Counted from the stretch's first letter, positions 18,665-33,323 are shown. The stretch is 64,000 bases of DNA from Candidatus Binataceae bacterium (GCA_030038355.1 JASHPB010000273.1:85221-149220); one strand, 5' to 3'. Program-made: numbers and translations. The notes: a model not told the origin generated them from the letters alone.

Positions 18665-19390
18665 ATGAAATCCGTGGCCCTCGTGGCGACAACATCGAAG
18701 CCGCTATCGAAAACACGGGCCAAGCATCCCCCGCTCACGCCCGCGACGATCGGCAGCGTGATGAAAGTTCTGCGTCGCGAAGCACCCAAGTGGAATGCGC
18801 CGATCGTGAGCTTCATCGCTGTGCAGTCGCGCGATCCATTCAAGACGCTGATTGGGTGCATCCTGAGCCTGCGGACTAAGGATGAAACCACCGCGCTCGC
18901 AGCGGCGCGGCTCTTCGAGCGGGCAGCGACTCCAGAGGCGATGCTCGCGCTGAGCCGCAAGACTCTTGAGCGCCTCATCTATCCGGTGGGCTTCTATCGC
19001 ACCAAGGCGCACGTTATTCGCGGAATCTGTCGCGACCTTATCGACAAGTTCGAAGGCCTGGTGCCCGATGACCTCAGTGCGCTGCTCACGCTGAAGGGCG
19101 TCGGGCGCAAGACAGCGAACCTGGTGGTGACCGAAGCATTCGGCAAGCCGGGGATCTGCGTCGACACGCATGTGCATCGCATTTCGAATCGATGGGGCAT
19201 CGTGAAGACGAAAACGCCCGAGCAGACCGAGATGGCGCTGCGCGAGAGTTTGCCACGGCGGCATTGGCTCGAATACAACGGCATACTTGTAGCCTTCGGG
19301 CAGACAATTTGTCATCCAACGTCGCCCTGGTGCTCACGATGCAGCATCGCCGAGATTTGCCCGCAAATCGGAGTAACGCGCTCGCGCTGA
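18665..19390 (+). CDS. nth: Endonuclease III (HhH-GPD base-excision glycosylase with a 4Fe-4S cluster)
   Basis: The HhH-GPD motif ([15 protein letters not shown]) is present. A C-terminal Cys cluster reads [17 protein letters not shown]. The true start may be the MKVLRR Met at about 18761. Confidence 0.85.
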
Positions 19391-19402
19391 AGGAGAATCG
19401 CG

Positions 19403-20587
19403 ATGGCTGGTCCACTTGATGGATTTCGGATTGTCGACGTGACGCAGATGGTTTCCGGGCCGATGGCCACGATGATCCTCGCCGACCAGGGCGCCGACGT
19501 GATCAAAGTTGAGCCGCCCGGCTCGGGCGACCTGACGCGCGCGCTGGCCGCCTCGAAGCGTGCGATGTCGCCGATGTTCGCGGTCATCAATCGGAACAAG
19601 AAGTCGATCGTGATCGATCTGAAGAAGCCGCGCGGCGTCGGGCTGCTGAAGGACCTGGTACGTGGTGCGGACCTGTTCGTGCAGAACTTCCGGCCGGGGG
19701 CCGCCGAGCGGATGGGAATCGGATACGAAGCTTTGGCCGCGGTTAATCCTGAACTCGTGTACGTTTCGATAAGCGGCTTCGGCGAACGAGGACCTTACAT
19801 CCACAAGAGAGTTTACGACCCCGTTGTGCAGGCGCTGTCGGGCCTCGCCGCTATCCAGGCCGACCAGGCAACGGGCCGCCCGCGAATGATGCGGCTCATT
19901 GTGCCCGACAAGGTGACCGCGCTCACTGCCGCGCAGGCGATGACGGCGGCGCTGCTCGGGCGCGAGCGCACGCACAAAGGGCAGCATCTCAAGCTCGCGA
20001 TGCTCGACGCGGTGGTCGCATTTCAGTGGCCCGAGGGGATGACGGCCTACACGTTCAGGAGCAGCGAGCCACCCGCGGTCGTGCGCCAGACCGTGCGCGA
20101 CCTCGTTTACCAAACCGCCGACGGTTACATCACGGTCGGCGCCGTCTCGGAGGTCGAATGGCAGGCACTCGCACGCGCCATTGGGCATCCGGAGTGGCTC
20201 GACGATCCGCGCTTCAGCACGCCAGCTGCGCGCGTGCGTCACACCGAGGATCGCCTGGAGCTTACGGCGCAGGCGCTCAAGGAGAAACCATCGGCCGAAT
20301 GGATCAAGCGCTTCGACGCGGCGCAGGTTCCATGCGCGCCGATTCTGAGCCGCGCCGATATTCTCACCGATCCGCAGATCGCCGCAAACGAGCTTATCGT
20401 CGAGGTCGAGCATCCCGCCGTCGGTGTGATGCGTCAGCCGCGCCCGGCCGCGCGCTTCGATGGCGCATCGACGAAGATCCGGAGCGCTGCGCCCGTTCTC
20501 GGTGAGCACACCGACCAAGTGCTGCGAGACGCGGGTTTCGATGCGTCGGCGATCAAACGGCTCCGTGCCGCGGACGTGATCGCGTAA
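19403..20587 (+). CDS. CoA-transferase family III (CaiB/BaiF) protein
   Basis: AAGGAGAA Shine-Dalgarno. The N-terminus is typical of the family (LDGFRIVDVTQMVSGPMATMILADQGADVIKVEPP). Confidence 0.9.
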   Translation: MAGPLDGFRIVDVTQMVSGPMATMILADQGADVIKVEPPGSGDLTRALAASKRAMSPMFAVINRNKKSIVIDLKKPRGVGLLKDLVRGADLFVQNFRPGAAERMGIGYEALAAVNPELVYVSISGFGERGPYIHKRVYDPVVQALSGLAAIQADQATGRPRMMRLIVPDKVTALTAAQAMTAALLGRERTHKGQHLKLAMLDAVVAFQWPEGMTAYTFRSSEPPAVVRQTVRDLVYQTADGYITVGAVSEVEWQALARAIGHPEWLDDPRFSTPAARVRHTEDRLELTAQALKEKPSAEWIKRFDAAQVPCAPILSRADILTDPQIAANELIVEVEHPAVGVMRQPRPAARFDGASTKIRSAAPVLGEHTDQVLRDAGFDASAIKRLRAADVIA

Positions 20588-20631
20588 AGCGCTGCTCTGC
20601 TCAACTGCTACGTGATGCTAGCCTTTGCGGC

Positions 20632-21525
20632 ATGGCACAGCGAATCGGATTCATCGGGCTCGGGGCGATGGGTTCCGCGATGGCGGGGAACCTGATCGCC
20701 GCCGGTTATCATCTCGACGTTTACAACCGCACCGCTTCGAAAGCCGCGCCGCTGGTCGCACGCGGCGCGCATCTATGCGAGCGGCCGTTCGACACCGCGC
20801 ACGGGCGCGGAATTATCGTCTCGATGCTCGCCGATGACGCGTCGCTCGAGCATCTGGTGACGAGCGAGCCGTCGATCGCCGAGCGACTGGCGCCCGGCGG
20901 AGTTCACATCTCCATGACCACCGTGTCGCCGTCAATCTCGCGCCGGCTCGCCAAGTATCACGAGCAGTGCGGCTCCGCGATGGTCGTCGCGCCAGTGTTC
21001 GGACGTCCCGAGGCAGCTGCAGCCAAGCGGCTTTGGATTTGTACATCTGGTTCCGCTGCCGCAAAGGAAAAAGCACGCCCCGTGCTCGAGGCCATGGGGC
21101 AGGCGATCTTCGATTTCGGCGAGGAGCCCGGCGCCGCGAACGCGGTCAAGCTCGGCGGCAACTTCATGATCGCGGCTGCCATGGAAGCGATGGGCGAAGC
21201 GCTCGCGATGGTCGAGAAGTGCGGCGTCGATCGAGTCGCGGCGATGGATCTCTGGTCGAAGACGCTCTTCGCCTGCCCGGTCTACCAGGGCTATGGCGCG
21301 GCCATCGCAAGGCGCGTGCATGAGCCGGCCGGATTTCGCCTGCCACTCGGCATGAAGGACGTCGATCTTGCATTGAAGGCTGCAACTGAGGTCGCCGCGC
21401 CGATGCCGCTCGCGAGCGTCGTGCACGATCGCTTCGTCGCAGCGCTAGCGAAGGGGCGGGGCGAGATGGATTGGTCCGCCGTCGCGCTCGGCGCCTCCGA
21501 TGATGCGGGCCTTACGCCCAAGTGA
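20632..21525 (+). CDS. NAD(P)-dependent oxidoreductase, 3-hydroxyisobutyrate dehydrogenase family
   Basis: A Rossmann GxGxxG motif at the N-terminus (IGFIGLGAMGSAMAGNL). The ORF is 297 aa. Confidence 0.9.
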   Translation: MAQRIGFIGLGAMGSAMAGNLIAAGYHLDVYNRTASKAAPLVARGAHLCERPFDTAHGRGIIVSMLADDASLEHLVTSEPSIAERLAPGGVHISMTTVSPSISRRLAKYHEQCGSAMVVAPVFGRPEAAAAKRLWICTSGSAAAKEKARPVLEAMGQAIFDFGEEPGAANAVKLGGNFMIAAAMEAMGEALAMVEKCGVDRVAAMDLWSKTLFACPVYQGYGAAIARRVHEPAGFRLPLGMKDVDLALKAATEVAAPMPLASVVHDRFVAALAKGRGEMDWSAVALGASDDAGLTPK

Positions 21526-22310
21526 TGGCCGAGGCTGCGCTGCGTGCAATAATCATCATTGCGGCGCTGCTATGCGTGCTCCTTGCGCTGCCGCAAGGCG
21601 CATACGCGATCGACTTCTACGAAATCCAGATCTACACGACTGAGACGACGCCGCCCGAGCGCCTCGAGCTCGAGCTTCACTCCAACACCGTCAGCACCGC
21701 GACGGGATACGAGGCGAAACAGGCACTGAACCCGTATCAGATCCACGAGACACTGGAGGCAACCTACGGACTCCTGCCGTGGCTCGAGGTCGGCCAGTAT
21801 CTCGCGACGGCCAAGCTCGACAACGGCAATTACGAGTACGCGGGAGCACGCACCAAGATGCATTTCGGCGTGCCGCAGACTGATTCGTGGCCGGTACAGT
21901 TCGGCGGCAATATCGAGCTTGATTACATGCGGCACGCCGCCGAGGATAATCCGACGACGCTGGAGCTGCGGCCGATTCTGCAGACGAGCTACAAGAAGTT
22001 AACGATCGTCGGCAACTTTGCCTTCGAGGATCCGTTCAGCGGACCGGGCGCGCACAAGGGGTTCCAGTTCGAGCCTTCGGGCGAGATCGAATACGATCTC
22101 ATCAAATGGGTGACGCCGGCGCTCGAGTACTACGGCGACATGGGCTCGCTTCGCGATATGCCCGGTGCTCAGAAGCAGCAGCATTTTATTGTGCCGGCGG
22201 CCAACCTCAATATCGTCGACAACCTGGAGCTTAACCTGGGCGTCGGCTTCGGCGTGACGCGCACGAGCAACGGCGTGTTCCTGAAGTCGATCGTGGGCTG
22301 GACGTTCTGA
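21522..22310 (+). CDS. Outer-membrane beta-barrel protein
   Basis: It has a signal peptide. Amphipathic strands alternate through the body. The last residue is Phe (IVGWTF). The start overlaps the upstream stop by 4 nt. Confidence 0.7.
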   Translation: MMAEAALRAIIIIAALLCVLLALPQGAYAIDFYEIQIYTTETTPPERLELELHSNTVSTATGYEAKQALNPYQIHETLEATYGLLPWLEVGQYLATAKLDNGNYEYAGARTKMHFGVPQTDSWPVQFGGNIELDYMRHAAEDNPTTLELRPILQTSYKKLTIVGNFAFEDPFSGPGAHKGFQFEPSGEIEYDLIKWVTPALEYYGDMGSLRDMPGAQKQQHFIVPAANLNIVDNLELNLGVGFGVTRTSNGVFLKSIVGWTF

Positions 22311-22363: not shown

Positions 22364-23779
22364 ATGTCGTTGCGCCCACTGGGGTTGCACACTATTGTCG
22401 ATTTTTACGCAACTGAAGCCCGCATGCGTCCCAGCGAAAACTTGAGACCTCGAGACGAAAAACTCTGGCAGATTCTCGGCCAGGTAGGCCGTCTGCGTTC
22501 GCGTCTCAACTCGCTCGCCTTCCAGCACGCATTCTTCTATGCAGCCGCGGCGCTGATCGTGGCGGGAGCGCTCATCTACATCTCCGCCTTCATGCTGACG
22601 CCGATCAATTTCATCGTGGTAACAGTGACGCTTTCGATTCTCGCCGCGTTCGCGATTGTCGCCGCCTTGCGCCAGGGATGGTTGATGCGTTCGAACGCGC
22701 GCCGGGCCGCGACTCTCGCTGATGAACGCGCGGATCTGAAGGGACGCCTCGCGACCATCGTTACGATCGCCGAGCATCGCAAGAAAGGCCCGATGTGGTC
22801 GTACCTGGTCGAGGATACCCTCGGCCGGCGCGCGGAATTCGCCCCCAGCCGGATCGAGAAGCGTCGCATTTCGCGGGCGATATACGCTTTCGTCGCATCG
22901 CTCATCGTCGCGGGATTAGTCTGGCCGCTCTCGCGAATCCGTCACGCGATTCCTATGCCCGCAAGCCAGGGCCAGGATGACCTCACGCTCGACCTCAATG
23001 ACCTGCACTTAAGGCCGGCCGGCCCGGGCGACGACAACGCGATGACGGTGCAGGCAGACCCCGAGACGATGCGCCGGCTCGAGGACAAACTCGCGCGCGA
23101 GGGCGTCGAACCAGGACAGGGCTCTTCCACATCGTTCGGCAAGTTGATGGATCAGGCTCGCAACATGGCCAACAACCTGCAGGACAAGCTTACGGGGCAA
23201 ACGCAGAACCATCGGCGGCTCAACCTGAAGCTCGCCGATGCGACCGATCCGATGAGCGGCCCTGGCAATCACAATCCACTCGATGCCGCGAACCACAAGC
23301 GGCGCGACGCCGCCGGCCAGTTCCAGCGCGATCAAACCAACGATAACAGTGGCCCGCTGCCGCGCGGCAGCCTCCGCGACAACAGCAGCGACGAACCAGA
23401 ACAGGCCGCGGGTCGCTCCGATCTCGCCAACCAGCAACCGGGAGCCAACGACCCCAACGCTGCCACCAAGCCATTGGACGATCAGGGAGATCAGCAAAAC
23501 GGTGACCAGGGAAGCAGCGGCGGTGCGGCGCATGGAATCGGCGTCGATCCTGACAGCCTGTTTGGCGCGCCGACCCAATCCAAGCTCGGTAACGAGGGCT
23601 TCGAGATCGCGATAGAGGCGCGACCGATGGAGCACGGCGCCAAGGGCGCCGGTCACGCCTACGAGCCGCCAAAGGTCCGCACACCGTTGGCCGCAGTTCA
23701 GGAGCCTGACGAACCGGTGGTACGGACGGAAGTTCCGCCCGATGATCGAACCACAATCAAGCGGGTATTCGAACGATGA
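22364..23779 (+). CDS. Hypothetical membrane protein with about three TM helices and a long D/N/Q/G-rich disordered C-terminal tail. It is the lead gene of the Bat-like locus.
   Basis: A 471-aa ORF. TM segments include FFYAAAALIVAGALIYISAF and INFIVVTVTLSILAAFAIVAAL. The stop overlaps the MoxR start as ATGA. Confidence 0.6.
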   Translation: MSLRPLGLHTIVDFYATEARMRPSENLRPRDEKLWQILGQVGRLRSRLNSLAFQHAFFYAAAALIVAGALIYISAFMLTPINFIVVTVTLSILAAFAIVAALRQGWLMRSNARRAATLADERADLKGRLATIVTIAEHRKKGPMWSYLVEDTLGRRAEFAPSRIEKRRISRAIYAFVASLIVAGLVWPLSRIRHAIPMPASQGQDDLTLDLNDLHLRPAGPGDDNAMTVQADPETMRRLEDKLAREGVEPGQGSSTSFGKLMDQARNMANNLQDKLTGQTQNHRRLNLKLADATDPMSGPGNHNPLDAANHKRRDAAGQFQRDQTNDNSGPLPRGSLRDNSSDEPEQAAGRSDLANQQPGANDPNAATKPLDDQGDQQNGDQGSSGGAAHGIGVDPDSLFGAPTQSKLGNEGFEIAIEARPMEHGAKGAGHAYEPPKVRTPLAAVQEPDEPVVRTEVPPDDRTTIKRVFER

Positions 23780-24819
23780 GTGAGCTAGCTGCCGTCGAAG
23801 TGCCGACCGTAGCCGATTTCGCACGTACCTTCCGTCGCATCCAGGCCGAAATTCACAAGGTCATTGTCGGTCACGGCCAGGCGGTCGAAGAGATGCTTGC
23901 GGCGCTGTTCGCGGGCGGCCACGTCCTGATCGAAGGTGTCCCCGGCACGGGCAAAACCACGCTGGTCAAGACCCTCGGGCTCGCGATGAACCTGAGCTTC
24001 AACCGCATCCAGTTCACCGTTGACCTGATGCCCGCCGATATCACTGGTACGCGCGTCATTCTCAGCTCCGATGACGGCCGGCGCGAATTCACTTTCCAGC
24101 CCGGCCCCGTCTTTTGCCATATCCTGCTCGGTGACGAGATTAACCGCGCCACGCCCAAGACGCAGTCGGCGCTGCTCGAAGCGATGGCCGAGCTGCAAGT
24201 CACAGTGGCTGGCGTGACGCATCGCCTCGCGCCGCCGTACTTCGTGATGGCGACGCTCAACCCGATCGAGATGGAAGGCACTTATCCGCTGCCCGAGGCA
24301 CAGCTCGATCGATTTCTGTTCAAGGTGCGGCTCAGCTACCCCGACGAAATCGAGCTCACGAGGATCATAACCTCCACTACTGGACCCGAGGAGGCCGGCG
24401 TCGAGCCTGTCTTCCATGCCGATGAAGCTCCCGCTCGCGTTGAGGCGCTCAAAAAGCTGGTACGCGACGTAATCGCGGCGCCCGAGATGGAGCACTACGC
24501 GGCGCGGATCGTGCGCGCCACGCAGCCGCAGAATTCGCGCTACGTGGCGGACGAGGCGCGCTCGGTGCACGACGAGATGGTCAACCGCTACGTGATGTTC
24601 GGATCGAGCCCGCGTGGCGCGCAGGCCCTGATCCTCGGCGCCAAGGTGCGTGCACTGCTCGACGGGCGCGCCAACATCGCGCGCGAAGATATCGACCGTG
24701 TCGCAATTCCCGCGCTCGCCCATCGCATCATGCTCAACTACGCGGCGCATTCCGACGGAATCGATGCGACCCACGTCGTCGAACGCGTGCTGAAATCGGT
24801 GCGCGCGGCGCGCGCCTGA
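23776..24819 (+). CDS. MoxR-family AAA+ ATPase
   Basis: Walker A is GVPGTGKT and Walker B is HILLGDEINRA. Confidence 0.9.
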   Translation: MSELAAVEVPTVADFARTFRRIQAEIHKVIVGHGQAVEEMLAALFAGGHVLIEGVPGTGKTTLVKTLGLAMNLSFNRIQFTVDLMPADITGTRVILSSDDGRREFTFQPGPVFCHILLGDEINRATPKTQSALLEAMAELQVTVAGVTHRLAPPYFVMATLNPIEMEGTYPLPEAQLDRFLFKVRLSYPDEIELTRIITSTTGPEEAGVEPVFHADEAPARVEALKKLVRDVIAAPEMEHYAARIVRATQPQNSRYVADEARSVHDEMVNRYVMFGSSPRGAQALILGAKVRALLDGRANIAREDIDRVAIPALAHRIMLNYAAHSDGIDATHVVERVLKSVRAARA

Positions 24820-24828
24820 GGTCCTGCA

Positions 24829-25734
24829 ATGCTCGAGACCCGCGCGTTCGAGCCCGACTATCTGCGAAAGCTCGACCGTCTCGTCCTCGGCATCAAGCGC
24901 GCGCGTTCGGTGCGCACGGGAGAGCGCCGGCTTGGCCGCGTGCAAGGTCTCGGTCTCGAGGTCGAAAATTTCAAGGAATACGCCGAGGGCGATGACCTCC
25001 GCTTTCTCGACTGGAACGCGCTGGCCCGCCTCGACCATCCGCTGATTCGCACCTTCCGCTCCGAGCGCCAGATCGAAATCACGGCGCTGGTCGATGCGAG
25101 CGCTTCGATGGGGATGCCGGAGCGTGACGACAAGCTCGGACTCGGCCTCGCGCTGGCTGCCTCGATCGCGTACATCGGGATGGCCGACAACGACCCGGTG
25201 CGGCTCGGCGCATTTTCAATGCGGCGCGGCGCGATGCGCTTTGAGACCACGCCGTTCCATCGCCGCCGCGAATCCTACGTCAACTTCCGCCCGTTCGTGA
25301 GTTCGGTGAGCGCGGGTGGCGAAACGCGCCTCGGCGTGGCTATCGATCAATTCCTGTTGCAGCATCGCCCGGCCGGCGTGGTCGTGGTGATATCAGATTT
25401 CCTGGTCGCCGAAGGCGATACCGACGACGCCCTGAAGCGCCTTACTTCCGCGCATCACGAAGTCAAAGTCGTGCACGTGCTTGGCGAGATGGAGAGCACC
25501 GGCGCCTATCCGCCCGGTCTCTACCGCATCCGCGATGCCGAGAGCGGTGAGACTCGCGAAGCGGTACTCGGGCCCGAATATGCGGCGCACTGCCGCGCGA
25601 AGGTCGAGCGCATCGCGAGCATCGTGCGTGCGATCTGCGACCGCTTGGGAATCGCCTACGCGCAGGCGTTCGGCGCCCGCACGCTCGACGATTTCATGGA
25701 GCGCGAACTGCCGCTGCTGGGCGTGGTGCGATAG
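24829..25734 (+). CDS. DUF58 domain protein, the usual MoxR partner
   Basis: DUF58-like motifs are present: EFKEYAEGDDLRFLDWNALARLD. GAGG Shine-Dalgarno. Confidence 0.85.
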   Translation: MLETRAFEPDYLRKLDRLVLGIKRARSVRTGERRLGRVQGLGLEVENFKEYAEGDDLRFLDWNALARLDHPLIRTFRSERQIEITALVDASASMGMPERDDKLGLGLALAASIAYIGMADNDPVRLGAFSMRRGAMRFETTPFHRRRESYVNFRPFVSSVSAGGETRLGVAIDQFLLQHRPAGVVVVISDFLVAEGDTDDALKRLTSAHHEVKVVHVLGEMESTGAYPPGLYRIRDAESGETREAVLGPEYAAHCRAKVERIASIVRAICDRLGIAYAQAFGARTLDDFMERELPLLGVVR

Positions 25735-25737
25735 GCG

Positions 25738-27618
25738 ATGGGCTTCCTCGATCCACGCAACCTCATCTGGGGCTTGAGTATCGCGGTGCTCGTGATCATA
25801 TACCTGCGCTCGCACGCGCGGCCGTTGATCGAGGTGTCGAGCCTGATGCTGTTCGACGAGCAGCCGGCGCCTGCCGCCAGCGTGCGCCGAGTACAGTTCG
25901 ATCCGCTGTTCTGGCTCGAGGTGGCGGCGCTCGCGGCTCTCACGCTCGCGATCGCGGGCTTCTTTGTGCGGATTCCTGAAGCGCCCGCCCACGGCCGGAG
26001 CCGAGCGCTCGTGTTCGATCTCGGCGCCGCGATGGGCGCCACTGACGGCGGAGTATCGCGTCTCGACCATGCCAAGTACGAAGCGCTCGACATGATCTCG
26101 TCCGCTGCGCCCGGCGACCAGTTCAGCGTCATTTCGTACGCGCTCGAGGCGCAACTGGTGCAGGCGCCTACCTCCGACGAAAAGGAGCTTCGCGCCGCTA
26201 TCGCCGGCCTTCGGCCGTTCGCCGTTGCCGCGCGTCCGGTGGCTCTCAGAGCCGCACTGATGCGCGCGCGCGCCGCAGCCGAGATCGATCTTTTCTCCGA
26301 TCGCCCTCCGCCGCAGCCCGCGGTTGCGAATCTCGCTTCGGCCGGGCGCTTCGATTTCCATCGCATCTCGGGTAGCGACGCCAACCTTGCGATCGTGTCG
26401 CTCGATCCCGGCGCGCCAGGCTCGGCGTGGGCCCGCGTCAGCGTGCGCAACTTTTCCGAGCATCCCGCGACCTGCGACGTTGCGGTCGATGTGTCCGGCA
26501 CCGAAGTGATGCGCCGCACTCTAGTGCTTGCGCCGCGCGAGCAAGCGACGGATCGCTTCCCGCGCTTAGGCCCGCTGGCCACCGGCGGACTGGTCCGCGC
26601 GCGGATACTAAATGCGGACGCTTTGGCCGCCGACAACACTCGCTATGCGCTCGCGCCGGCATCAGACCGGGTCTCAGCGATCGTATTCTCGCCCGACCCG
26701 GCAGTGCGCGACGACCTCGCTCGAACGCTGCTCGCGGTCAATCCGAACTTCCGAATTGAGACGATCGATCCGGCCAAGTACAAGGCCGACGCGAGCCACG
26801 CCTCGAACCCATATGCGCTCGCAATCTTCCACGATTCGTTCGTGCCCAACGTTCCGGCACAGGCGAGCCTCCTGATTTACCCGCCCGTGGGAACGGCCGC
26901 ATCCGCTCTCGCACCCGATCTCAAGGTCGAGGCTACGGCGCCCGCGGCCGAACTGCGCGATGCCTCCGGTTCGGCTGCGACCGCTATGCCGATGGGCGAG
27001 ACGCGAGTGCTCAAACTCGGCGAATGGATGGAACCTACGGCGTCGGCGGTGCTGAGCGGTCACGGGCGCGCTCCCGCTGTTGCATTCGGTCAGAGCGCCC
27101 ACGGTTCCGTGGGTGTTATCGCGTTCGATATTGGCGATCACATGCTGCTCGATCCGGATCATCTGAATGCGCTGGTCGCCACTATCGACCTCGTCAAGCG
27201 CCTCGTGGCACCGAGCGACATGCAAATCGTCCCCACCGGAAAGTACGTAACTATTCCGGCGGCGTCTCCCGCCCGCGTGACTGCGCCAGACGGCGCGGTG
27301 CGCAGCCTCGCGCCCGACAAATGGGGCCGCATCACGCTTCGACCGCTCGAAGCGGGCGACTACACGGTCGCGGTTGGCGGCACGACCACGCAAATTCTCG
27401 CCAACTACTATGACGCGACCGAGTCGGATCTCGCCGCCACGGATTCCGCGGCGTCCTCGTCGAGCGCCGAGCGCGGGGTGGCAGCCACTAGCGTGCCGCG
27501 CGAGAATCAGCTTCAGCCTCTTGTGCTGATGCTCGCAGCGTTGGCTCTGATCGCACTGGTGGCCGAATCTGCGCTGCTCGCGCGTCATGCGGCGCGATGG
27601 GGAGTGCGTCATGTTTGA
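25738..27618 (+). CDS. BatA-like membrane protein with a degenerate VWA domain
   Basis: An N-terminal double-TM aerotolerance-regulator-like segment (LIWGLSIAVLVIIYL). A degenerate VWA core reads ALVFDLGAAMGA. There is a C-terminal TM segment. Confidence 0.75.
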   Translation: MGFLDPRNLIWGLSIAVLVIIYLRSHARPLIEVSSLMLFDEQPAPAASVRRVQFDPLFWLEVAALAALTLAIAGFFVRIPEAPAHGRSRALVFDLGAAMGATDGGVSRLDHAKYEALDMISSAAPGDQFSVISYALEAQLVQAPTSDEKELRAAIAGLRPFAVAARPVALRAALMRARAAAEIDLFSDRPPPQPAVANLASAGRFDFHRISGSDANLAIVSLDPGAPGSAWARVSVRNFSEHPATCDVAVDVSGTEVMRRTLVLAPREQATDRFPRLGPLATGGLVRARILNADALAADNTRYALAPASDRVSAIVFSPDPAVRDDLARTLLAVNPNFRIETIDPAKYKADASHASNPYALAIFHDSFVPNVPAQASLLIYPPVGTAASALAPDLKVEATAPAAELRDASGSAATAMPMGETRVLKLGEWMEPTASAVLSGHGRAPAVAFGQSAHGSVGVIAFDIGDHMLLDPDHLNALVATIDLVKRLVAPSDMQIVPTGKYVTIPAASPARVTAPDGAVRSLAPDKWGRITLRPLEAGDYTVAVGGTTTQILANYYDATESDLAATDSAASSSSAERGVAATSVPRENQLQPLVLMLAALALIALVAESALLARHAARWGVRHV

Positions 27619-30196
27619 GCGGCCGCATCTTCTCTGGCTGCTGCTCTTGCTACCGATCGTGATAGCGCCGGGAATCCTCGCGCTTCGCGGCGGGCAGCGT
27701 CCTCTCGCGTTGTTGCTGATCTCAATCCGCACGCTCTTGCTCGTCACGCTTGTTGCACTGATCGCGGGGCTCAGGATTCCCGGGCACGTGGCGGCGCGAA
27801 AGCTCGCCGTGGTCGCCGCAATAGATGAATCTCGCTCGATTGCGCCGGACCAGGCTGAGTGGATGCGCAAGCGGGTAAGGGAACTCAGGCGGGCGATGTC
27901 GCCGCGCGACGAACTCGCGGTGGTGGGCTTCGGCCGCGATGCGCGGCTGCTCGCGCCGATGTCCGATCCGCGTCTGGTACGCGAGATCGGGCGCGGCGCC
28001 GATCCCGGCGCAACCAATATCGCTGATGCCCTTACGACCGCCGAAAGTCTTTTCGCGCCCGACACCGACCAGCGTATCTTGCTCCTGAGTGACGGCAATG
28101 AGACGGAGGACTCCGTGCGCGCCGCGATTCCGTCGCTGACTGAGAGTGGAGTCCGGGTTTTCACCGCAACGCCGCCGCCCTCGGCGACCGAACGCGTCGC
28201 TCTCACCGATTTCAGCGCGCCTGGAATGGTGCGAGCCGATCAGCAGTTTGCCTTTCGAATCGCCGTCGCGAGTGAAGCGCAAGCGCCCGCCAGTGCCACG
28301 CTGAAGCTCTACCAGGACGGAGCCGCGTTGGGGGCTGAGACGGTGATGCTGAAGCCGGGGCTTAACCGCTTCGAGTTGCCCTACAGGATGAGCCAGCGAG
28401 GCGCGTTTATCATGGGCGCCGAGGTGAGCGTTGCGCCGCCGCGGCTCGCGATCAATCCGCGGCTCGAAACCGGTATCTCGGTGATCGGCGCGCCGCGCGT
28501 GCTGATCGCGACGTTGACGCCGCCGGAGAGCTTGATGACGGCGCTTAAGCTCCGCGGCTACCGGATAGATACGGTCTCGCCGCTGAGTCTCAGCTCCAAC
28601 CCGCTCGACTACCTTCCTTATCAGCTCGTGATCATGGCTGACGCGCCGGCGAGCCAACTCAACGCCCAGGTGCAGCACGCATTGAATCGTTACGTCGCTG
28701 ACCTCGGCGGCGGATTGATCGCAACGGGGGATACGCTCCGCGAAGACGGCTATCGCGGCGGCGAACTGGAAAAGACGCTGCCAGTAAACTTCGAATTACA
28801 GCCGCCGCCCCCCTCGCGCGAGCCGATCGCAGTGTATCTATGCATCGACCGGTCGAACTCGATGAGCTACGACTCGCGGTATCCCGCGGTGCGCGATGGC
28901 GAGAGGATTCGCTATGCCAAGCAAGCGGCGATCGCTCTCCTGCGCCAGCTCGATGACACTGATTTTGCCGGTGTGATCGCGTTCGACTCGCAGCCCTACG
29001 TGCTCGGACATCTCGAGCCGCTCGGCGACGATCGCTCGGACCTCGAGAACCGCATCGAGCGGCTCCAGCCGGGCGGCGGCACCGATTTTAAGGATGCACT
29101 CGAAATCGCGGAGCGGGAAATCCTGCAGAGCAAGATCGCCGTGCGCCAGGTCATCCTGCTGACCGACGGCGACACCAACCGGCAGTATCACGACCACGAT
29201 GATCTGATCGCGAGTTTCGTGCGCGAGAAAATTCCGGTCTCGACGATCCGTATCGGACCTGATCTCGCCAACCTCCAGTTGCTGCAGGACTTCGCGCAGG
29301 CGACCGGCGGCGTTTTCTACCGCGTCGCTGATATCGAAAAGCTTCCTCTATTGCTGGTCGGGCTCACGCGCGAGGCGATGAACCGGCGCAAGCAGGATCG
29401 AACCGCGGTGGTGGCGGGTGAGCCGAGCGCGATCCTCACCGGCATCAGCGCCAAGGAAGTTCCGCCCATCGACTTTTTTGCTTCGACCTCGGCGAAAAAC
29501 GGCGCACAAGTGCCGCTCAGCGTCACCCGCGGCGATCGCTCGGCGCCGTTGCTGGCTGCCTGGCAGTATGGCCTCGGCCGCGCCGCGGTTTTCGCTGCCG
29601 ATCCCGACTCGCTCGCCACGCTCAGCTGGATCCGATGGAGCCGCTATGCGGAATTTTGGTCGCAACTCGTTACGTGGACGATGCGCGAGGGCGACGCAGG
29701 CCCCTTCACGATGAGAATTATGCCGAGTCCCGACGGTTCGATCGCGGTCGAAGCCGAGAAAGCTGACAACGATCCGGTCAGCAACCTCGTCTGCCGTCTC
29801 AGCGGACCTTCACATGCGACCGATATCGCGATGACGCAGGCCGACGCCTCGCTCTATCGCGCCGATCTCGGGCCGCTAGCGCGCGGCAAATACACCGTAA
29901 CCCTGATGCTCAAGGCGGGCGACACCGAGCGCATCATCGAGCAGCGGGAATTCGCCACGCCCGGCTCGATCGCGGCTGACAGTGCGGAGCTTCGAATTCG
30001 TCCACCCAACATCGAGTTGCTTCGTGATTTGGCCACCGCGACGCGCGGCGCCTTCGACGCCGATGACGCCGAAATCGTGCGGCATGCCGGCGCGACGGTC
30101 GCTGTGCGGACCCGCGCGGATGCGATCCTGTTACCAATTATCATCTTGTTGTTTCTCAGCGAGGTCTTTGTCCGTCGCAGGTTCCTGGGCCAGTGA
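27611..30196 (+). CDS. Large membrane-anchored protein with two VWA domains (BatB-like)
   Basis: The start is at MFERPHLLW, with a GGGGAG Shine-Dalgarno. VWA cores are VAAIDESRSI and VYLCIDRSNSMS. There is a C-terminal TM segment. The stop overlaps the downstream start. Confidence 0.8.
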   Translation: MFERPHLLWLLLLLPIVIAPGILALRGGQRPLALLLISIRTLLLVTLVALIAGLRIPGHVAARKLAVVAAIDESRSIAPDQAEWMRKRVRELRRAMSPRDELAVVGFGRDARLLAPMSDPRLVREIGRGADPGATNIADALTTAESLFAPDTDQRILLLSDGNETEDSVRAAIPSLTESGVRVFTATPPPSATERVALTDFSAPGMVRADQQFAFRIAVASEAQAPASATLKLYQDGAALGAETVMLKPGLNRFELPYRMSQRGAFIMGAEVSVAPPRLAINPRLETGISVIGAPRVLIATLTPPESLMTALKLRGYRIDTVSPLSLSSNPLDYLPYQLVIMADAPASQLNAQVQHALNRYVADLGGGLIATGDTLREDGYRGGELEKTLPVNFELQPPPPSREPIAVYLCIDRSNSMSYDSRYPAVRDGERIRYAKQAAIALLRQLDDTDFAGVIAFDSQPYVLGHLEPLGDDRSDLENRIERLQPGGGTDFKDALEIAEREILQSKIAVRQVILLTDGDTNRQYHDHDDLIASFVREKIPVSTIRIGPDLANLQLLQDFAQATGGVFYRVADIEKLPLLLVGLTREAMNRRKQDRTAVVAGEPSAILTGISAKEVPPIDFFASTSAKNGAQVPLSVTRGDRSAPLLAAWQYGLGRAAVFAADPDSLATLSWIRWSRYAEFWSQLVTWTMREGDAGPFTMRIMPSPDGSIAVEAEKADNDPVSNLVCRLSGPSHATDIAMTQADASLYRADLGPLARGKYTVTLMLKAGDTERIIEQREFATPGSIAADSAELRIRPPNIELLRDLATATRGAFDADDAEIVRHAGATVAVRTRADAILLPIIILLFLSEVFVRRRFLGQ

Positions 30197-30213: not shown

Positions 30214-30753
30214 ATGAAACCGAGCCGCGGTCGCTTCCAGGGTAAAATTCTGTCCACCATTTGTGCTTGCGCTGTCGTGCTCGCCGCGAGTGTCTCTGCA
30301 AACGCGGCGTTCTCGGAGCGCGATCTGAGGGCGCTCGGCAAGGCAAGCCTGATTTACATCGCGACCGTCAGGAAGGACGGCAATCAGAGCACGTCGGCGC
30401 CGGTCTGGTTCATCATGAGCAAGGACAAAACGCTCCTGATCCAGACGGGCGCGACCAGCTGGAAGGCCAAACGCATCCGGCGCGGCAGCCCGGCGATGAT
30501 CTGGATCGGCGAAAAAAGCGGTCCCGCGTTCATGGCTGAGGCGGCGATCGAAAGCGGCAAGGATTCGCAGCAGGAGATCCTTGAGGGCATTCCGCGCAAG
30601 TACACGCTTGCACGGCTCGGAATCGTCGGACCGAGTCAGAAGAAGTTCGACGCCGGCACGTTGGTGGTAATTCGCCTCACCCAGGTGCGCGATTTGCCGG
30701 ATGGTTACGCTTCGCAGCCGGGCACGCCTGCGCCGCCACTGGAATCGAAGTAG
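30214..30753 (+). CDS. Secreted pyridoxamine 5'-phosphate oxidase-like FMN-binding split-barrel protein
   Basis: GAGGGAGGAAGG Shine-Dalgarno. It has a signal peptide. A PNPOx-like core reads LIYIATVRKDGNQSTSAPVWFIMSKDKTLLIQT. Confidence 0.7.
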   Translation: MKPSRGRFQGKILSTICACAVVLAASVSANAAFSERDLRALGKASLIYIATVRKDGNQSTSAPVWFIMSKDKTLLIQTGATSWKAKRIRRGSPAMIWIGEKSGPAFMAEAAIESGKDSQQEILEGIPRKYTLARLGIVGPSQKKFDAGTLVVIRLTQVRDLPDGYASQPGTPAPPLESK

Positions 30754-31843: not shown

Positions 31844-32769
31844 TTGCCGCTTCCGTCGATGAGTCCTGCGGCATCGCCAGCCATCAACACGTCGCAATCC
31901 TCGGTCTGCGAAGTCGCCGCTGCCAAGTTTGCCGGAATACCAAAACGATGGCCACCCCTAGCCACTGAACCATGTGGCAAGGATGTGCCGGCGTGCGCGG
32001 CGGATATCGACGCATGCCTCGCAAAAGCGAAGACCTTCGACGCGAGCGCCGCCGCGCGACGGGCATATGTTTATCTCAACCGGCTCGGCGTCCCTCGCGA
32101 TTACACTCTCGCGAGGAACTGGTCAGCGGTAGCGGCGGCCAGAGGCAACGCTCTCGGCGAGGATAATCTGGGACAGAATCCCCGCCATCGGCCTGGGTGT
32201 CACGCAGGACTATCCGACGGCGCAAGACAACTTTCAGCGTGCGGCGGCGCACAACTGCGCGCTGGCCCAGAACGACCCGGGCGATATGTACCTCTACGGT
32301 AAAGGCGTCGCCTGCGATCCATCAACCGCGTTGGAGTGGTATCGAAAGGCTGCGCAACAGAACGACGCGACGGGGCAAAGCAACCTGGGCTACAGGTGTC
32401 TTCACGGCTTTGGAGTTCAGAAGGATCCGAAGCAGGGCCCTCGATTGGCTTGCTAAATCAGCGGCGCAGGGAAATCCGTCTGCGCAGGATTCATTCGGAT
32501 ATATGTACCTCACGGGCCTTCGGGTGGAGCGCGACCCAGCGCAGTCGTTCCAGTGCTTCAAGGCCGCGGCCAAGCAAGGGTTTGCTGAGTCAGAGATTCA
32601 CCTCGCCGAGCTTTACAAGAAAGGACTCGGCGTCGAGCAAAGTAGCGACGACCGATGGTATTGTGCGGCGGCAGCGACAGGCAATGTCGCCGCGCAGCTG
32701 CAGATCCAGAGTCTGAACGCGAGTTGTCCCGCAATTGCCGCACAGAACTCCACGCCGAACTCCGATTGA
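31844..32769 (+). pseudogene. Sel1-repeat (TPR-like) protein gene with at least two frameshifts
   Basis: Sel1 motifs run through three successive frames: AYVYLNRLGVPRDYTLARNWSAVAAARGNALGEDNLG, then DMYLYGKGVACDPSTALEWYRKAAQQNDATGQSNLGYRCLHGFGVQKD, then AQDSFGYMYLTGLRVERDPAQSFQCFKAAAKQGFAESEIHLAELYKKGLGV. Confidence 0.55.
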
Positions 32770-32906: not shown

Positions 32907-33323
32907 ATGGCCACGATGCAACCCAACTCGATCCTCTTTCGGCGCGCGATCGAGCGCAAGTGTCCGGTATGCGGCCGTGGCGACGTCTTCGCGACGCACT
33001 TCCGGATGAATCGCGCCTGCCCACGATGCCACGTCGTGTTCTGGAAGGACCCCGGCGAATCGCTCGGCGCGATGTATCTTGACTACGCGGTCGCGACGGT
33101 TGCCTTCCTTGTCGCCTGGCTGGTGGTCGCATTCGGGACGCACCTTTCCGACACGGGGCAAATCGTTATCTTGTGTGCCGTCGCCGTGAGCGCCGTGATC
33201 GCAGCCTATCCATGGACGCGAAGCGCCTGGACAGTGCTGGTCTATCTCTCCGGTGGAATCGAGCGGCCGCGGATGCGCGCGATACGCGGCGGCAAGGAAC
33301 CGCCGAAAGCGGGCGCGGCTTAG
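32907..33323 (+). CDS. DUF983-like zinc-ribbon membrane protein
   Basis: Two Cys pairs: CPVCGRG...CPRC. They are followed by two TM helices. Confidence 0.7.
   Translation: MATMQPNSILFRRAIERKCPVCGRGDVFATHFRMNRACPRCHVVFWKDPGESLGAMYLDYAVATVAFLVAWLVVAFGTHLSDTGQIVILCAVAVSAVIAAYPWTRSAWTVLVYLSGGIERPRMRAIRGGKEPPKAGAA

What the first reader, a model, noticed from the sequence alone, without database searches (positions are those of the whole stretch)
22364..30196. Complete Bat-like membrane module whose lead gene encodes a membrane protein with a roughly 270-aa disordered D/N/Q/G-rich tail
The five genes are tightly coupled: two ATGA overlaps and 4-10 nt spacers.

MoxR ATPases with DUF58 and VWA partners are widespread, but their biological substrates are mostly unknown. 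Here the operon opens with an uncharacterised three-TM protein carrying a long low-complexity acidic or polar tail. It ends with an 869-aa protein that has two VWA cores between terminal TM segments.

A secreted FMN-binding split-barrel protein follows 18 nt downstream of the VWA gene stop.
Basis: partly seen in the sequence, partly recalled or inferred. Interest (0 to 1): 0.5.

Follow-up and report, generated by a model that had tools for sequence, protein, structure and literature searches.

The report
MoxR–VWA operon with unnamed membrane partner
A Binatia bacterium carries a five-gene operon for a MoxR ATPase and its membrane-bound VWA partners, a known module type of unknown function, and it opens with a conserved but unnamed three-helix membrane protein that turns out to be a constant member of the module.

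Summary
Five co-directional, tightly packed genes lie at 22364/22424-30196:
- g1, a membrane protein with no family match
- g2, a MoxR AAA+ ATPase
- g3, DUF58
- g4, BatA_N + VWA, 626 aa
- g5, a double-VWA + GATase1-like protein, 861 aa

g1 matches no Pfam, NCBIfam, PADLOC or PDB entry. It is not junk low complexity. Residues 10-175 fold with pLDDT 92-98 into a TM hairpin, a helical insert and a third TM helix. That insert carries the only family-wide invariant residues (A-D-x-R-x-x-L-x-x-R-L-x-T). The ~280-aa acidic tail is modelled as disordered, yet it contains conserved blocks and a C-terminal motif.

The order g1-MoxR-DUF58-g4-g5 recurs in all 14 complete related loci, even where g1 identity falls to about 20%. 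A Deinococcus family, also placed just upstream of MoxR, is homologous in the N-terminal module (hhalign 97.5%).

My best reading is that g1 is an integral subunit linking cytoplasmic MoxR/DUF58 to the periplasmic VWA domains. This is inferred, not shown. The downstream split-barrel gene is not core.

Verdict: a new variant of a known, functionally obscure module, of moderate interest.

The parts
22424..23779 (+). g1: lead gene, an unnamed membrane protein of 451 aa. The longest ORF starts at 22364 and gives 471 aa.
   Evidence: ORF. The M21 start is favoured by 120 homologues. There is no Pfam, NCBIfam, PADLOC or PDB hit. The family has 309 hits at E<=1e-3 among 1.84 billion representatives.
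22424..22948 (+). g1 N-terminal membrane module (aa 1-175). It comprises TM1 ~35-57, TM2 ~62-84, a basic helical insert at 85-150 carrying the invariant motif A-D-x-R-x-x-L-x-x-R-L-x-T, and TM3 ~151-172.
   Evidence: AlphaFold2 with the diverse alignment A2 gives pLDDT 92-98. Charges are N-terminus +4 and insert +7. D100, L105, R108, T111 and L128 are invariant in 49 sequences that go down to 17% identity. This module is homologous to a Deinococcus family: hhalign probability 97.5%, E 8e-12.
22940..23776 (+). g1 tail (aa 173-451). It is acidic, mostly predicted disordered, and predicted to be periplasmic. It contains conserved blocks and short helices at 213-226, 236-256 and 439-449.
   Evidence: Net charge is -14 and 75% of residues are disorder-promoting. 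pLDDT is 38-50 outside the helices. Tail length across the family is 230-402 aa, median 282.
23504..23776 (+). g1 conserved C-terminal block (aa 361-451). In the window it ends ...VPPDDRTTIKRVFER. In distant relatives it ends ...IPPEYExIVRRVF/YS.
   Evidence: 64-94% identity (20-residue windows) among 120 homologues. The motif is kept in relatives at 17-24% identity.
23776..24819 (+). g2: MoxR-type AAA+ ATPase, 347 aa. It has a 4-nt ATGA overlap with g1.
   Evidence: AAA_3 E 6e-59 and AAA_lid_2 E 1e-15. It matches the uncharacterised protein in PDB 2R44 at E 2e-63. The junction is shown.
24829..25734 (+). g3: DUF58 protein, 301 aa. It has a VWA-like fold and no TM, so it is cytoplasmic. Its MIDAS motif DASAS is intact.
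   Evidence: DUF58 E 2e-28. No TM segment. DxSxS is conserved in all 18 sequences compared (the window plus 17 relatives).
25738..27618 (+). g4: BatA_N double-TM domain plus a VWA domain, a ~400-aa unassigned region and a C-terminal TM (626 aa). MIDAS is degenerate here (DLGAA).
   Evidence: BatA E 8e-6 (26.6 bits vs 25.9 cut-off) and VWA_2 E 4e-8. TM segments. MIDAS is intact (D-x-SAS) in 12 distant relatives but lost in the window clade.
27611..30196 (+). g5: N-terminal TM hairpin, VWA-1 (DESRS), VWA-2 (DRSNS), a GATase1-like region and a C-terminal TM (861 aa). It has an 8-nt overlap with g4.
   Evidence: VWA_2 E 6e-29 in two stretches, VWA E 7e-24, and GATase1_like 27.3 bits vs 27 cut-off. 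TM segments. Both MIDAS motifs are conserved in all relatives. The junction is shown.
30214..30753 (+). g6: an adjacent gene for a secreted PNPOx/F420-type split-barrel-like protein (179 aa). It is not a core part of the module.
   Evidence: Sub-threshold PNPOx_N and TIGR03666 hits. Signal-peptide-like N-terminus. It is present after g5 only in L001 and L002. It is replaced by unrelated genes in L018-L020 and L022, and gave no tblastn hit in L005-L017.

Best explanation
The locus encodes an inner-membrane MoxR (MRP-type) chaperone/remodelling complex, and g1 is a constant, integral subunit of it.

Shown here:
- The five genes are translationally coupled, and they co-occur in the same order across very divergent relatives.
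- g1 has a confidently folded three-TM module. Its basic helical insert carries the only family-wide invariant residues, including Asp100.
- g3 (DUF58) and both VWA domains of g5 keep intact MIDAS metal sites.

Inferred:
- By the positive-inside rule, g1 is N-in. Its helical insert then faces the cytoplasm and its acidic tail faces the periplasm.
- The large VWA-bearing parts of g4 and g5 lie between an N-terminal hairpin and a C-terminal TM, so they also face the periplasm. This topology was found experimentally for the Borrelia BatA-like protein BB0173.

Proposed mechanism:
1. The MoxR hexamer binds the soluble VWA-like DUF58 adaptor. This follows the NorQ/NorD model, in which the VWA domain plugs the ring and recognises carboxylates on the target.
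2. DUF58 docks through its MIDAS site on the invariant acidic motif of the g1 cytoplasmic insert, possibly together with the BatA_N loop of g4.
3. ATP-driven pulling is passed through the g1 helices to its periplasmic tail.
4. The conserved acidic linear motifs and C-terminal block of the tail are bound by the MIDAS sites of the periplasmic VWA domains of g5 (and of g4 in other clades).
5. This controls assembly or conformation of a periplasmic VWA scaffold that acts on the cell envelope.

The physiological output is unknown. By analogy with MRP-type modules in Rhizobium, Francisella and Bacteroides, it is likely envelope integrity or stress tolerance.
For: Domain content.

Coupling: junction sequences.

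Synteny: g1-like, MoxR, DUF58, BatA_N/VWA and double-VWA/GATase1-like genes occur in the same order in 14 complete loci. These are L001, L002, L006-L008, L010, L013-L016, L018-L020 and L022. Seven truncated loci are consistent with it, and none contradicts it. This holds although g1 identity falls to 17-30%.

Outside Binatia: Deinococcus aetherius has hyp477-MoxR (4-nt overlap)-DUF58-fused BatA_N...VWA. The hyp477 family is homologous to the g1 N-terminal module: hhalign 97.5%, E 8e-12 over 155 columns.

Fold: pLDDT is 92-98 for residues 10-175. The tail is low confidence apart from three helices.

Invariants: D100, L105, R108, T111 and L128 all lie in the insert.

Charges: g1 N-terminus +4, insert +7, tail -14. 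The large domains of g4 and g5 are net -11 and -15, with short basic termini.

MIDAS conservation.

Literature:
- BB0173 has its VWA domain oriented to the periplasm (PMC5700661).
- In NorQ/NorD, the VWA domain plugs the ring and target carboxylates are required (PMC9976466).
- MRP-type MoxR proteins are linked to membrane integrity and stress tolerance (PMC3893208).
Against: - No interaction was tested. No multimer prediction was available.
- Topology rests on charge bias and parity only.
- The g4 MIDAS site is degenerate in this clade, so at least one proposed contact cannot be MIDAS-mediated here.
- The tail may fold on its own, and AlphaFold2 may simply fail on it.
- The C-terminal motif shared with Deinococcus aligns in register but is not significant by itself (E 0.006, probability 6%).
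- The Ketogulonicigenium protein in the analogous position shows no detectable similarity.
- The function of MRP-type modules is itself unknown, so the output is an analogy.
Confidence: 0.5

Rival explanations
1. g1 is the client or regulator of the MoxR machine rather than a structural bridge. MoxR/DUF58 would unfold, extract or gate g1 (for example to release or expose its periplasmic tail), or g1 would tune the ATPase.
For: - MoxR ATPases act on dedicated clients encoded nearby (PMC3893208; PMC9976466).
- g1 is first in the operon and translationally coupled to MoxR.
- Long disordered regions are good AAA+ substrates. The tail has pLDDT 38-50.
Against: - The part of g1 conserved across the whole family is a folded membrane module with an invariant motif. 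That looks more like a docking surface than a degron.
- The tail is predicted to lie on the opposite side of the membrane from the ATPase.
- The computed data cannot separate this reading from the best explanation.
Confidence: 0.2
2. g1 is a remote, unrecognised member of the already named DUF4175/TIGR02302 group. These are alphaproteobacterial membrane proteins with 2-3 N-terminal TM helices and a long Gln/Gly-rich low-complexity C-terminal region. On this reading the lead gene is not a new family.
For: - The architecture is the same, according to my recollection of the TIGR02302 description (not tested here).
- One paper describes a DUF4175 match next to two TM helices in A. baumannii AdvA (PMC7481262).
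Against: - There is no DUF4175 or TIGR02302 hit for g1 at E up to 10.
- 46 divergent family members scanned singly against Pfam at E up to 1 gave none.
- Deinococcus, Ketogulonicigenium and five distant members scanned against NCBIfam at E up to 1 gave none.
- No DUF4175 sequence was available for a profile-profile test.
Confidence: 0.15
3. g1 is functionally independent of the MoxR module. It would be a periplasm-spanning tether (TolA/TonB-like: membrane anchor, long flexible linker, small conserved C-terminal block) that is merely co-transcribed.
For: - The anchor, linker and conserved C-terminal block layout fits.
- Tail length is rather constant (median 282 aa) despite variable sequence.
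Against: - The position immediately upstream of MoxR is kept, often with overlapping codons, across relatives down to about 20% identity and into Deinococcota.
Confidence: 0.1
4. The module is an anti-phage or biological-conflict system of the MoxR-vWA ternary type.
For: - g2 gives a secondary hit to the bpMoxR model, E 2e-8 and 33.8 bits.
- g2 gives a weak PADLOC mad8 hit confined to the P-loop.
Against: - The AAA_3 score is far higher, 198 bits.
- No beta-propeller or effector domain is present.
- No other PADLOC hits.
- The flanks are stable housekeeping genes conserved between genomes.
Confidence: 0.03

Closest known systems
Bat (Bacteroides aerotolerance) operon and its spirochaete homologues: MoxR, DUF58, BatA, BatB, BatC, BatD, BatE. 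Includes Borrelia BB0170-BB0176 and the Leptospira bat genes.
   Same: - MoxR followed by DUF58, then two membrane VWA proteins.
- The BatA_N double-TM domain is present in g4.
- A periplasm-facing VWA domain was shown for BB0173 (PMC5700661).
   Different: - There is no TPR (BatC), BatD or SH3/TPR (BatE) gene.
- g4 and g5 are two to three times longer than BatA and BatB. g5 has two VWA domains plus a GATase1-like region.
- The leptospiral BatA model scores 30.7 bits against a cut-off of 380.
- A g1-type lead gene is not listed among the Bat operon components described in the papers I read.
Rhizobium leguminosarum RL3499-RL3502 and Francisella MRP-type MoxR operons
   Same: MRP-subfamily MoxR with DUF58 and membrane partners. 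These are linked to membrane integrity, cell morphology and stress tolerance (PMC3893208).
   Different: The sequences of those operons were not compared here. I could not determine whether they contain a g1-type gene.
NorQ/NorD, RavA/ViaA and CbbQ/CbbO MoxR-VWA chaperone pairs
   Same: An AAA+ MoxR ring works with a VWA/MIDAS adaptor that recognises carboxylates on the target (PMC9976466). This is the mechanistic template used for DUF58 plus MoxR here.
   Different: - They belong to different MoxR subfamilies.
- Their adaptors are soluble and their clients are known enzymes.
- They have no DUF58 and no membrane-embedded VWA proteins.
Deinococcus 'hypothetical protein' family (WP_264778559.1 of D. 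aetherius pDAETH-2 and about 20 relatives)
   Same: - About 460-520 aa, with an N-terminal TM/insert module homologous to g1 (hhalign 97.5%).
- The 'ADRR.GL..LL.T' motif is kept, followed by a long low-complexity region and a C-terminus '...IP...V.AYF.R'.
- The gene lies immediately upstream of MoxR-DUF58 and overlaps MoxR.
   Different: - The tail carries a Cys-containing conserved block that Binatia lack.
- The g4-like and g5-like proteins are fused into one protein of 1334 aa.
- Similarity in the C-terminal motif is not significant.
DUF4175 (PF13779) / TIGR02302 family
   Same: 2-3 N-terminal TM helices followed by a long low-complexity region. This comes from my recollection of the family description and from PMC7481262.
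   Different: No HMM match for any of more than 50 family members tested.

Membership tests
MoxR AAA+ ATPase, MRP (MoxR proper) subfamily (g2) | AAA_3 ATPase core plus AAA_lid_2 | tested here: met
   AAA_3 E 6e-59 (198 bits vs cut-off 27) and AAA_lid_2 E 1e-15. Walker A GVPGTGKT and Walker B LLGDE are visible in the translation. PDB 2R44 matches at E 2e-63.
MoxR AAA+ ATPase, MRP (MoxR proper) subfamily (g2) | Adjacent DUF58 gene and VWA-domain partner genes. This is the Snider & Houry criterion, as cited in PMC12067865 and PMC3893208. | tested here: met
   g3 is DUF58, and g4 and g5 carry VWA domains, directly downstream.
Bat aerotolerance operon | BatA-type protein: BatA_N double-TM domain followed by a VWA domain | tested here: met
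   g4 has BatA 26.6 bits (cut-off 25.9) at residues 1-74 and VWA_2 at residues 91-181.
Bat aerotolerance operon | BatC (TPR), BatD and BatE (SH3/TPR) genes in the operon | tested here: not met
   No TPR, BatD or SH3 domain occurs in g0-g6, nor in the gene tables of the related loci.
Bat aerotolerance operon | Contribution to oxygen or oxidative-stress tolerance | not testable with these tools
   This needs genetics. Even in Leptospira the role is disputed (abstract of PMC3557215).
DUF4175 / TIGR02302 | Match to the PF13779 or TIGR02302 HMM | tested here: not met
   No hit for g1 at E<=10, for 46 distant members at E<=1, or for seven further proteins in NCBIfam at E<=1.
DUF4175 / TIGR02302 | 2-3 N-terminal TM helices plus a long low-complexity C-terminal region | tested here: met
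   The family definition itself is from memory.
DUF4175 / TIGR02302 | Profile-profile (HHpred-type) similarity to the family | not tested
   No DUF4175 sequences or profile could be obtained with these tools.
Unnamed g1 family (defined here) | TM hairpin, a basic helical insert with A-D-x-R-x-x-L-x-x-R-L-x-T, a third TM, an acidic tail of 230-400 aa, and a C-terminal '(I/V)P..(Y/D)...(V/I)..(V/I)(F/Y)' motif | tested here: met
Unnamed g1 family (defined here) | Gene located immediately upstream of MoxR-DUF58-BatA_N/VWA-VWA | tested here: met
   This holds in all loci with enough DNA, and in Deinococcus.
MoxR-vWA-beta-propeller ternary conflict systems (bpMoxR) | bpMoxR-type ATPase with a vWA protein and a beta-propeller or effector partner | tested here: not met
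   bpMoxR scores only 33.8 bits against AAA_3 at 198 bits. There is no propeller or effector domain, and PADLOC gives nothing beyond a P-loop hit.
PNPOx / F420-dependent PPOX split-barrel (g6) | Score above the curated cut-off of PF01243 or TIGR03666/TIGR03618 | tested here: not met
   PNPOx_N 25.3 vs 28.1 bits, TIGR03666 44.1 vs 84.9 bits, and TIGR03618 32.7 vs 79 bits. It is probably a divergent relative. The cofactor is unknown.

The most novel reading that the evidence does not exclude
The g1 family would be a so-far unrecognised, cross-phylum core subunit (Binatota and Deinococcota at least) of MRP-type MoxR modules. It would carry the work of a cytoplasmic AAA+ ring across the inner membrane to periplasmic VWA/MIDAS domains. 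That would be an ATP-driven counterpart of TonB/TolA-type trans-envelope energy transduction. The invariant Asp-Arg motif of its cytoplasmic insert would be the DUF58 MIDAS docking site, and the conserved acidic tail motifs would be periplasmic MIDAS ligands.
Probability: 0.15. Interest if true: 0.65.

Novelty: new variant of a known kind. Interest (0 to 1): 0.38.

Why it matters
MoxR-DUF58-VWA membrane modules are among the most widespread bacterial gene clusters whose substrate and mechanism are unknown.

g1 is a partner that is always present and always first in the operon. It has conserved sequence on both predicted faces of the membrane, and its invariant motif can be mutated. This gives a concrete handle on how a cytoplasmic ATPase could talk to periplasmic VWA domains.

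The homologous family in cultivable Deinococcus species means the idea may be testable genetically, which it is not in uncultivated Binatia. At the least, the family deserves a name and a model in the domain databases, so that hundreds of 'hypothetical proteins' can be linked to MoxR biology.

Tried and rejected
- **Family scans of g1 and fragments.** Pfam and NCBIfam at E up to 10 gave only TM-driven noise such as Oleosin and WXG100.
- **First AlphaFold2 run.** A shallow alignment limited to close homologues gave pLDDT 46 and was uninformative. The second run, with the diverse alignment, gave a confident N-terminal module.
- **PDB sequence search with the family profile.** No hits.
- **Second homologous-protein search.** Run with the mixed alignment A2, it returned only the close Binatia set again and added nothing.
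- **The search for related loci with the 46-sequence alignment.** A narrower alignment worked, but 9 of 13 recovered loci are labelled Binatia; three are labelled delta-/Deltaproteobacteria and one Margulisiibacteriota.
- **Cluster look-ups.** They gave no organism names for the most distant relatives. The taxa of L018-L022 therefore remain unknown.
- **Ketogulonicigenium hyp441.** It sits in the analogous position but shows no detectable similarity.
- **C-terminal motif, Binatia vs Deinococcus.** It aligns in register but is not significant.
- **Promoter and terminator scan.** At or below chance, so it is not informative for operon boundaries.
- **Defence-system reading.** Rejected.
- **DUF4175/TIGR02302 lead from memory.** Not supported by any HMM scan.

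Full report
**1. What is there**

The window has about 62% G+C throughout. On the + strand between 22364 and 30196 lie five long ORFs in one direction.

| Gene | Coordinates | Size | Family hits |
|---|---|---|---|
| g1 | 22364-23779 | 471 aa | none |
| g2 | 23776-24819 | 347 aa | AAA_3 E 6e-59, AAA_lid_2: a MoxR ATPase |
| g3 | 24829-25734 | 301 aa | DUF58 E 2e-28 |
| g4 | 25738-27618 | 626 aa | BatA_N at 1-74, VWA_2 at 91-181 |
| g5 | 27611-30196 | 861 aa | two VWA domains, marginal GATase1_like at 604-690 |

- g2 matches the solved uncharacterised protein 2R44 at E 2e-63.
- The junctions are:
  - g1/g2, a 4-nt ATGA overlap;
  - g2/g3, a 9-nt spacer;
  - g3/g4, a 3-nt spacer;
  - g4/g5, an 8-nt ATGTTTGA overlap.
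- g5 begins at 27611 rather than 27587. Relatives show the same 8-nt overlap and 861 residues.
- g1 most probably begins at Met21 (22424, 451 aa). 96% of 120 homologues lack the first 20 residues. I use the 451-aa numbering below.

**2. The lead protein**

Hydropathy gives three TM helices, at about 35-57, 62-84 and 151-172.

AlphaFold2 gave two different results:
- With a shallow alignment the model was poor, pLDDT 46.
- With a diverse 49-sequence alignment, residues 10-175 reach pLDDT 92-98. They form a TM hairpin, a small helical insert (92-144) and a third TM helix.
- In the second model the rest stays at pLDDT 38-50, except for helices 213-226, 236-256 and 439-449.

The tail (173-451) is 34% D/N/Q/G and 75% disorder-promoting residues, with net charge -14.

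The tail is nevertheless not featureless. Among 120 homologues the blocks DDLTxDLxDLHLRP, DPxTMRRLxxKLARE, RLNLxLADA and AGQF are nearly invariant. The last ~90 residues are also nearly invariant (GGxAHGxGxDPDSLFGAP...EGFEIAIEARP...AGHAY.PPKVRTPL...PDEPV.R..VP.DDRTTIKRVFER). Only about 80 residues in the middle vary freely.

g1 has no hit in any of these:
- Pfam or NCBIfam, even at E up to 10
- PADLOC
- PDB sequences

**3. The family and its context**

*Close homologues.* They carry the label 'Candidatus Binatus' where they are named. The window therefore comes from the class Binatia, phylum Binatota.

*Family size.* A profile search of 1.84 billion cluster representatives found 309 proteins at E<=1e-3. 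The distant ones (17-24% identity, 412-567 aa) keep three features:
- the N-terminal module
- a tail of similar length (230-402 aa, median 282)
- a C-terminal motif, '...DDxxRKAx(I/V)PPEYExIVRRV(F/Y)'

*Invariant residues.* Across all 49 aligned sequences these are D100, L105, R108, T111 and L128. All lie in the helical insert, forming A-D-x-R-x-x-L-x-x-R-L-x-T.

*Synteny.* I looked at 21 related loci.
- In the 14 with enough DNA, the order g1-like, MoxR, DUF58, BatA_N/VWA (~615-630 aa), double-VWA/GATase1-like (~860-890 aa) is identical.
- The seven truncated loci are consistent with this order.
- None contradicts it.

*Taxa.* Nine of the 13 loci recovered by the genome scan are labelled Binatia. 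The others are three labelled delta-/Deltaproteobacteria and one labelled Margulisiibacteriota. I could not name the organisms of L018-L022.

*The g6 gene.* The split-barrel gene follows g5 only in the two closest relatives. It is replaced by unrelated genes in L018-L020 and L022 and gave no hit in L005-L017, so it is not core.

**4. Outside Binatia**

A tblastn search of g5 against plasmids found two clusters.

- **Deinococcus aetherius pDAETH-2.**
  - A 477-aa hypothetical protein overlaps the start of MoxR by 4 nt.
  - It is followed by DUF58 (found by tblastn) and by a 1334-aa protein that fuses BatA_N with a g5-like VWA region.
  - The 477-aa protein has two N-terminal hydrophobic stretches, the motif 'AARLADRRLGLHDLLGTAL', a long low-complexity region, and a C-terminus '...DDIPAAAQDTVSAYFRRTP'.
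  - Its family of about 20 Deinococcus proteins matches the distant g1 family profile at hhalign probability 97.5%, E 8e-12, over 155 columns that cover the whole N-terminal module.
  - The C-terminal motifs align in register but are not significant alone.
- **Ketogulonicigenium plasmid.** It has a 441-aa hypothetical protein in the analogous position, with no detectable similarity.

The g1-type protein is thus an unnamed MoxR-associated family present in at least two phyla.

**5. Topology and metal sites**

g1 has a basic N-terminus (+4), a basic insert (+7) and an acidic tail (-14). By the positive-inside rule this gives N-in, the insert in the cytoplasm and the tail in the periplasm.

In g4 and g5 the large, net-acidic VWA-bearing parts sit between an N-terminal hairpin and a C-terminal TM with short basic ends. 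This predicts periplasmic VWA domains, as was found experimentally for the Borrelia BatA-like protein BB0173 (PMC5700661). MoxR and DUF58 have no TM segments.

MIDAS motifs (DxSxS):
- conserved in DUF58 in all relatives
- conserved in both VWA domains of g5 in all relatives
- intact in g4 of distant relatives, but degenerate (DLGAA) in the window's clade

**6. How it most likely works**

The NorQ/NorD study proposes a general mode for MoxR/VWA pairs. The VWA domain plugs the AAA+ ring, and carboxylates on the target are required (PMC9976466).

Applied here:
1. DUF58 is the soluble VWA-like adaptor of MoxR.
2. Its natural cytoplasmic target is the invariant acidic/basic motif of the g1 insert, perhaps together with the BatA_N loop of g4.
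3. g1 is the only component with substantial conserved sequence on both predicted faces of the membrane.
4. Its acidic periplasmic motifs are plausible ligands for the MIDAS sites of g5.

I therefore propose that g1 couples the cytoplasmic ATPase to a periplasmic VWA scaffold.

Shown: gene content, coupling, conserved synteny, the fold of the N-terminal module, the invariant motif, and MIDAS conservation. Inferred: topology, all contacts, and the envelope-related output. The output is an analogy with Rhizobium RL3499 and the Francisella MRP-type MoxR (PMC3893208).

Rivals, none of which the computed data exclude:
- g1 is a client or regulator of the machine.
- g1 is a remote DUF4175/TIGR02302 member.
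- g1 is an independent tether.

A conflict-system reading is unlikely.

**7. Comparison with known systems, and novelty**

The module is a member of the MRP-type MoxR-DUF58-VWA class. It is 'Bat-like' in its MoxR, DUF58 and BatA_N/VWA parts. It lacks BatC, BatD and BatE, and it has much larger VWA proteins.

The kind is known and its function is obscure. What is new is the recognition that an unnamed ~450-aa membrane protein is a constant, leading member of this variant. It has a confidently modelled membrane module, an invariant motif and a cross-phylum relative.

I rate this as a new variant of a known kind, with moderate interest (0.38). It does not overturn anything, and the mechanism is inferred. 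It does offer a concrete, mutable handle on a long-standing unknown, and a cultivable genus (Deinococcus) in which to test it.

Noticed in passing
window 25738-27618 (g4), residues ~91-96; compared with L001, L002, L006-L022: The MIDAS motif of the g4 VWA domain is intact (D-x-SAS) in 12 distant relatives. It is degenerate (DLGAA / ALGAG / DIGAA) in the window and its closest clade (L001, L002, L022). This suggests loss of metal-dependent binding in one subunit of this lineage.
   Followed up: partly
window 21522-22310 (+): A 262-aa ORF lies directly upstream of g1. It has a signal peptide ending AYA|I and a C-terminal ...GWTF, which looks like an outer-membrane beta-barrel. It has no Pfam hit even at E<=1. 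It is conserved in the same position in L001 (64% identity), but L002 has a cytochrome P450 gene there instead.
   Followed up: partly
window 22364-22423: The 20-codon N-terminal extension of the longest g1 ORF is absent from 96% of homologues. It is partly conserved at the protein level in P0002 and P0011 (…GL(H/R)TIV(D/N)…). It could be an alternative start or a conserved leader or regulatory sequence.
   Followed up: no
L014 176-1871 (- strand): One Binatia MAG carries a second, divergent MoxR (43% identity) plus DUF58 pair. It lies on the opposite strand, about 9 kb upstream of the main module.
   Followed up: no
L006 (DATKMS010000383.1) and protein P0064: Sequences that are clearly of the Binatia type (55% identity to the Binatia query, with the full five-gene module) sit in records labelled 'Candidatus Margulisiibacteriota bacterium' and 'Patescibacteria group bacterium'. 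These are probably taxonomic mislabels of MAGs.
   Followed up: no
L001, L002, L018, L022 flanks; window 18665-21525: Several genes recur near the module in different relatives, sometimes on the other side or the other strand. They encode HhH-GPD glycosylase, CoA-transferase III, NAD-binding dehydrogenase, FIST-domain and M20-peptidase proteins. This indicates a stable chromosomal neighbourhood rather than a mobile island.
   Followed up: no
L024 6973-10977 and L023 7372-10917: In Deinococcus aetherius and Ketogulonicigenium robustum the BatA_N domain and a g5-like VWA region are fused into single giant proteins (1334 and 1181 aa). In Ketogulonicigenium the ATPase and DUF58 genes follow the VWA gene rather than precede it.
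   Followed up: partly
window 32197-32769 and 32907-33323 (+): Downstream of the module lie a Sel1-repeat protein (E 4e-11) and a small protein with a sub-threshold DUF983 match that begins with CxxC...CxxC. They are unrelated to the finding as far as I can tell.
   Followed up: no
literature (PMC7481262): The essential Acinetobacter baumannii division protein AdvA is described as having a DUF4175 match next to two TM helices. If g1 proves to be a remote DUF4175 relative, this would be the only characterised protein with that domain that I came across.
   Followed up: no
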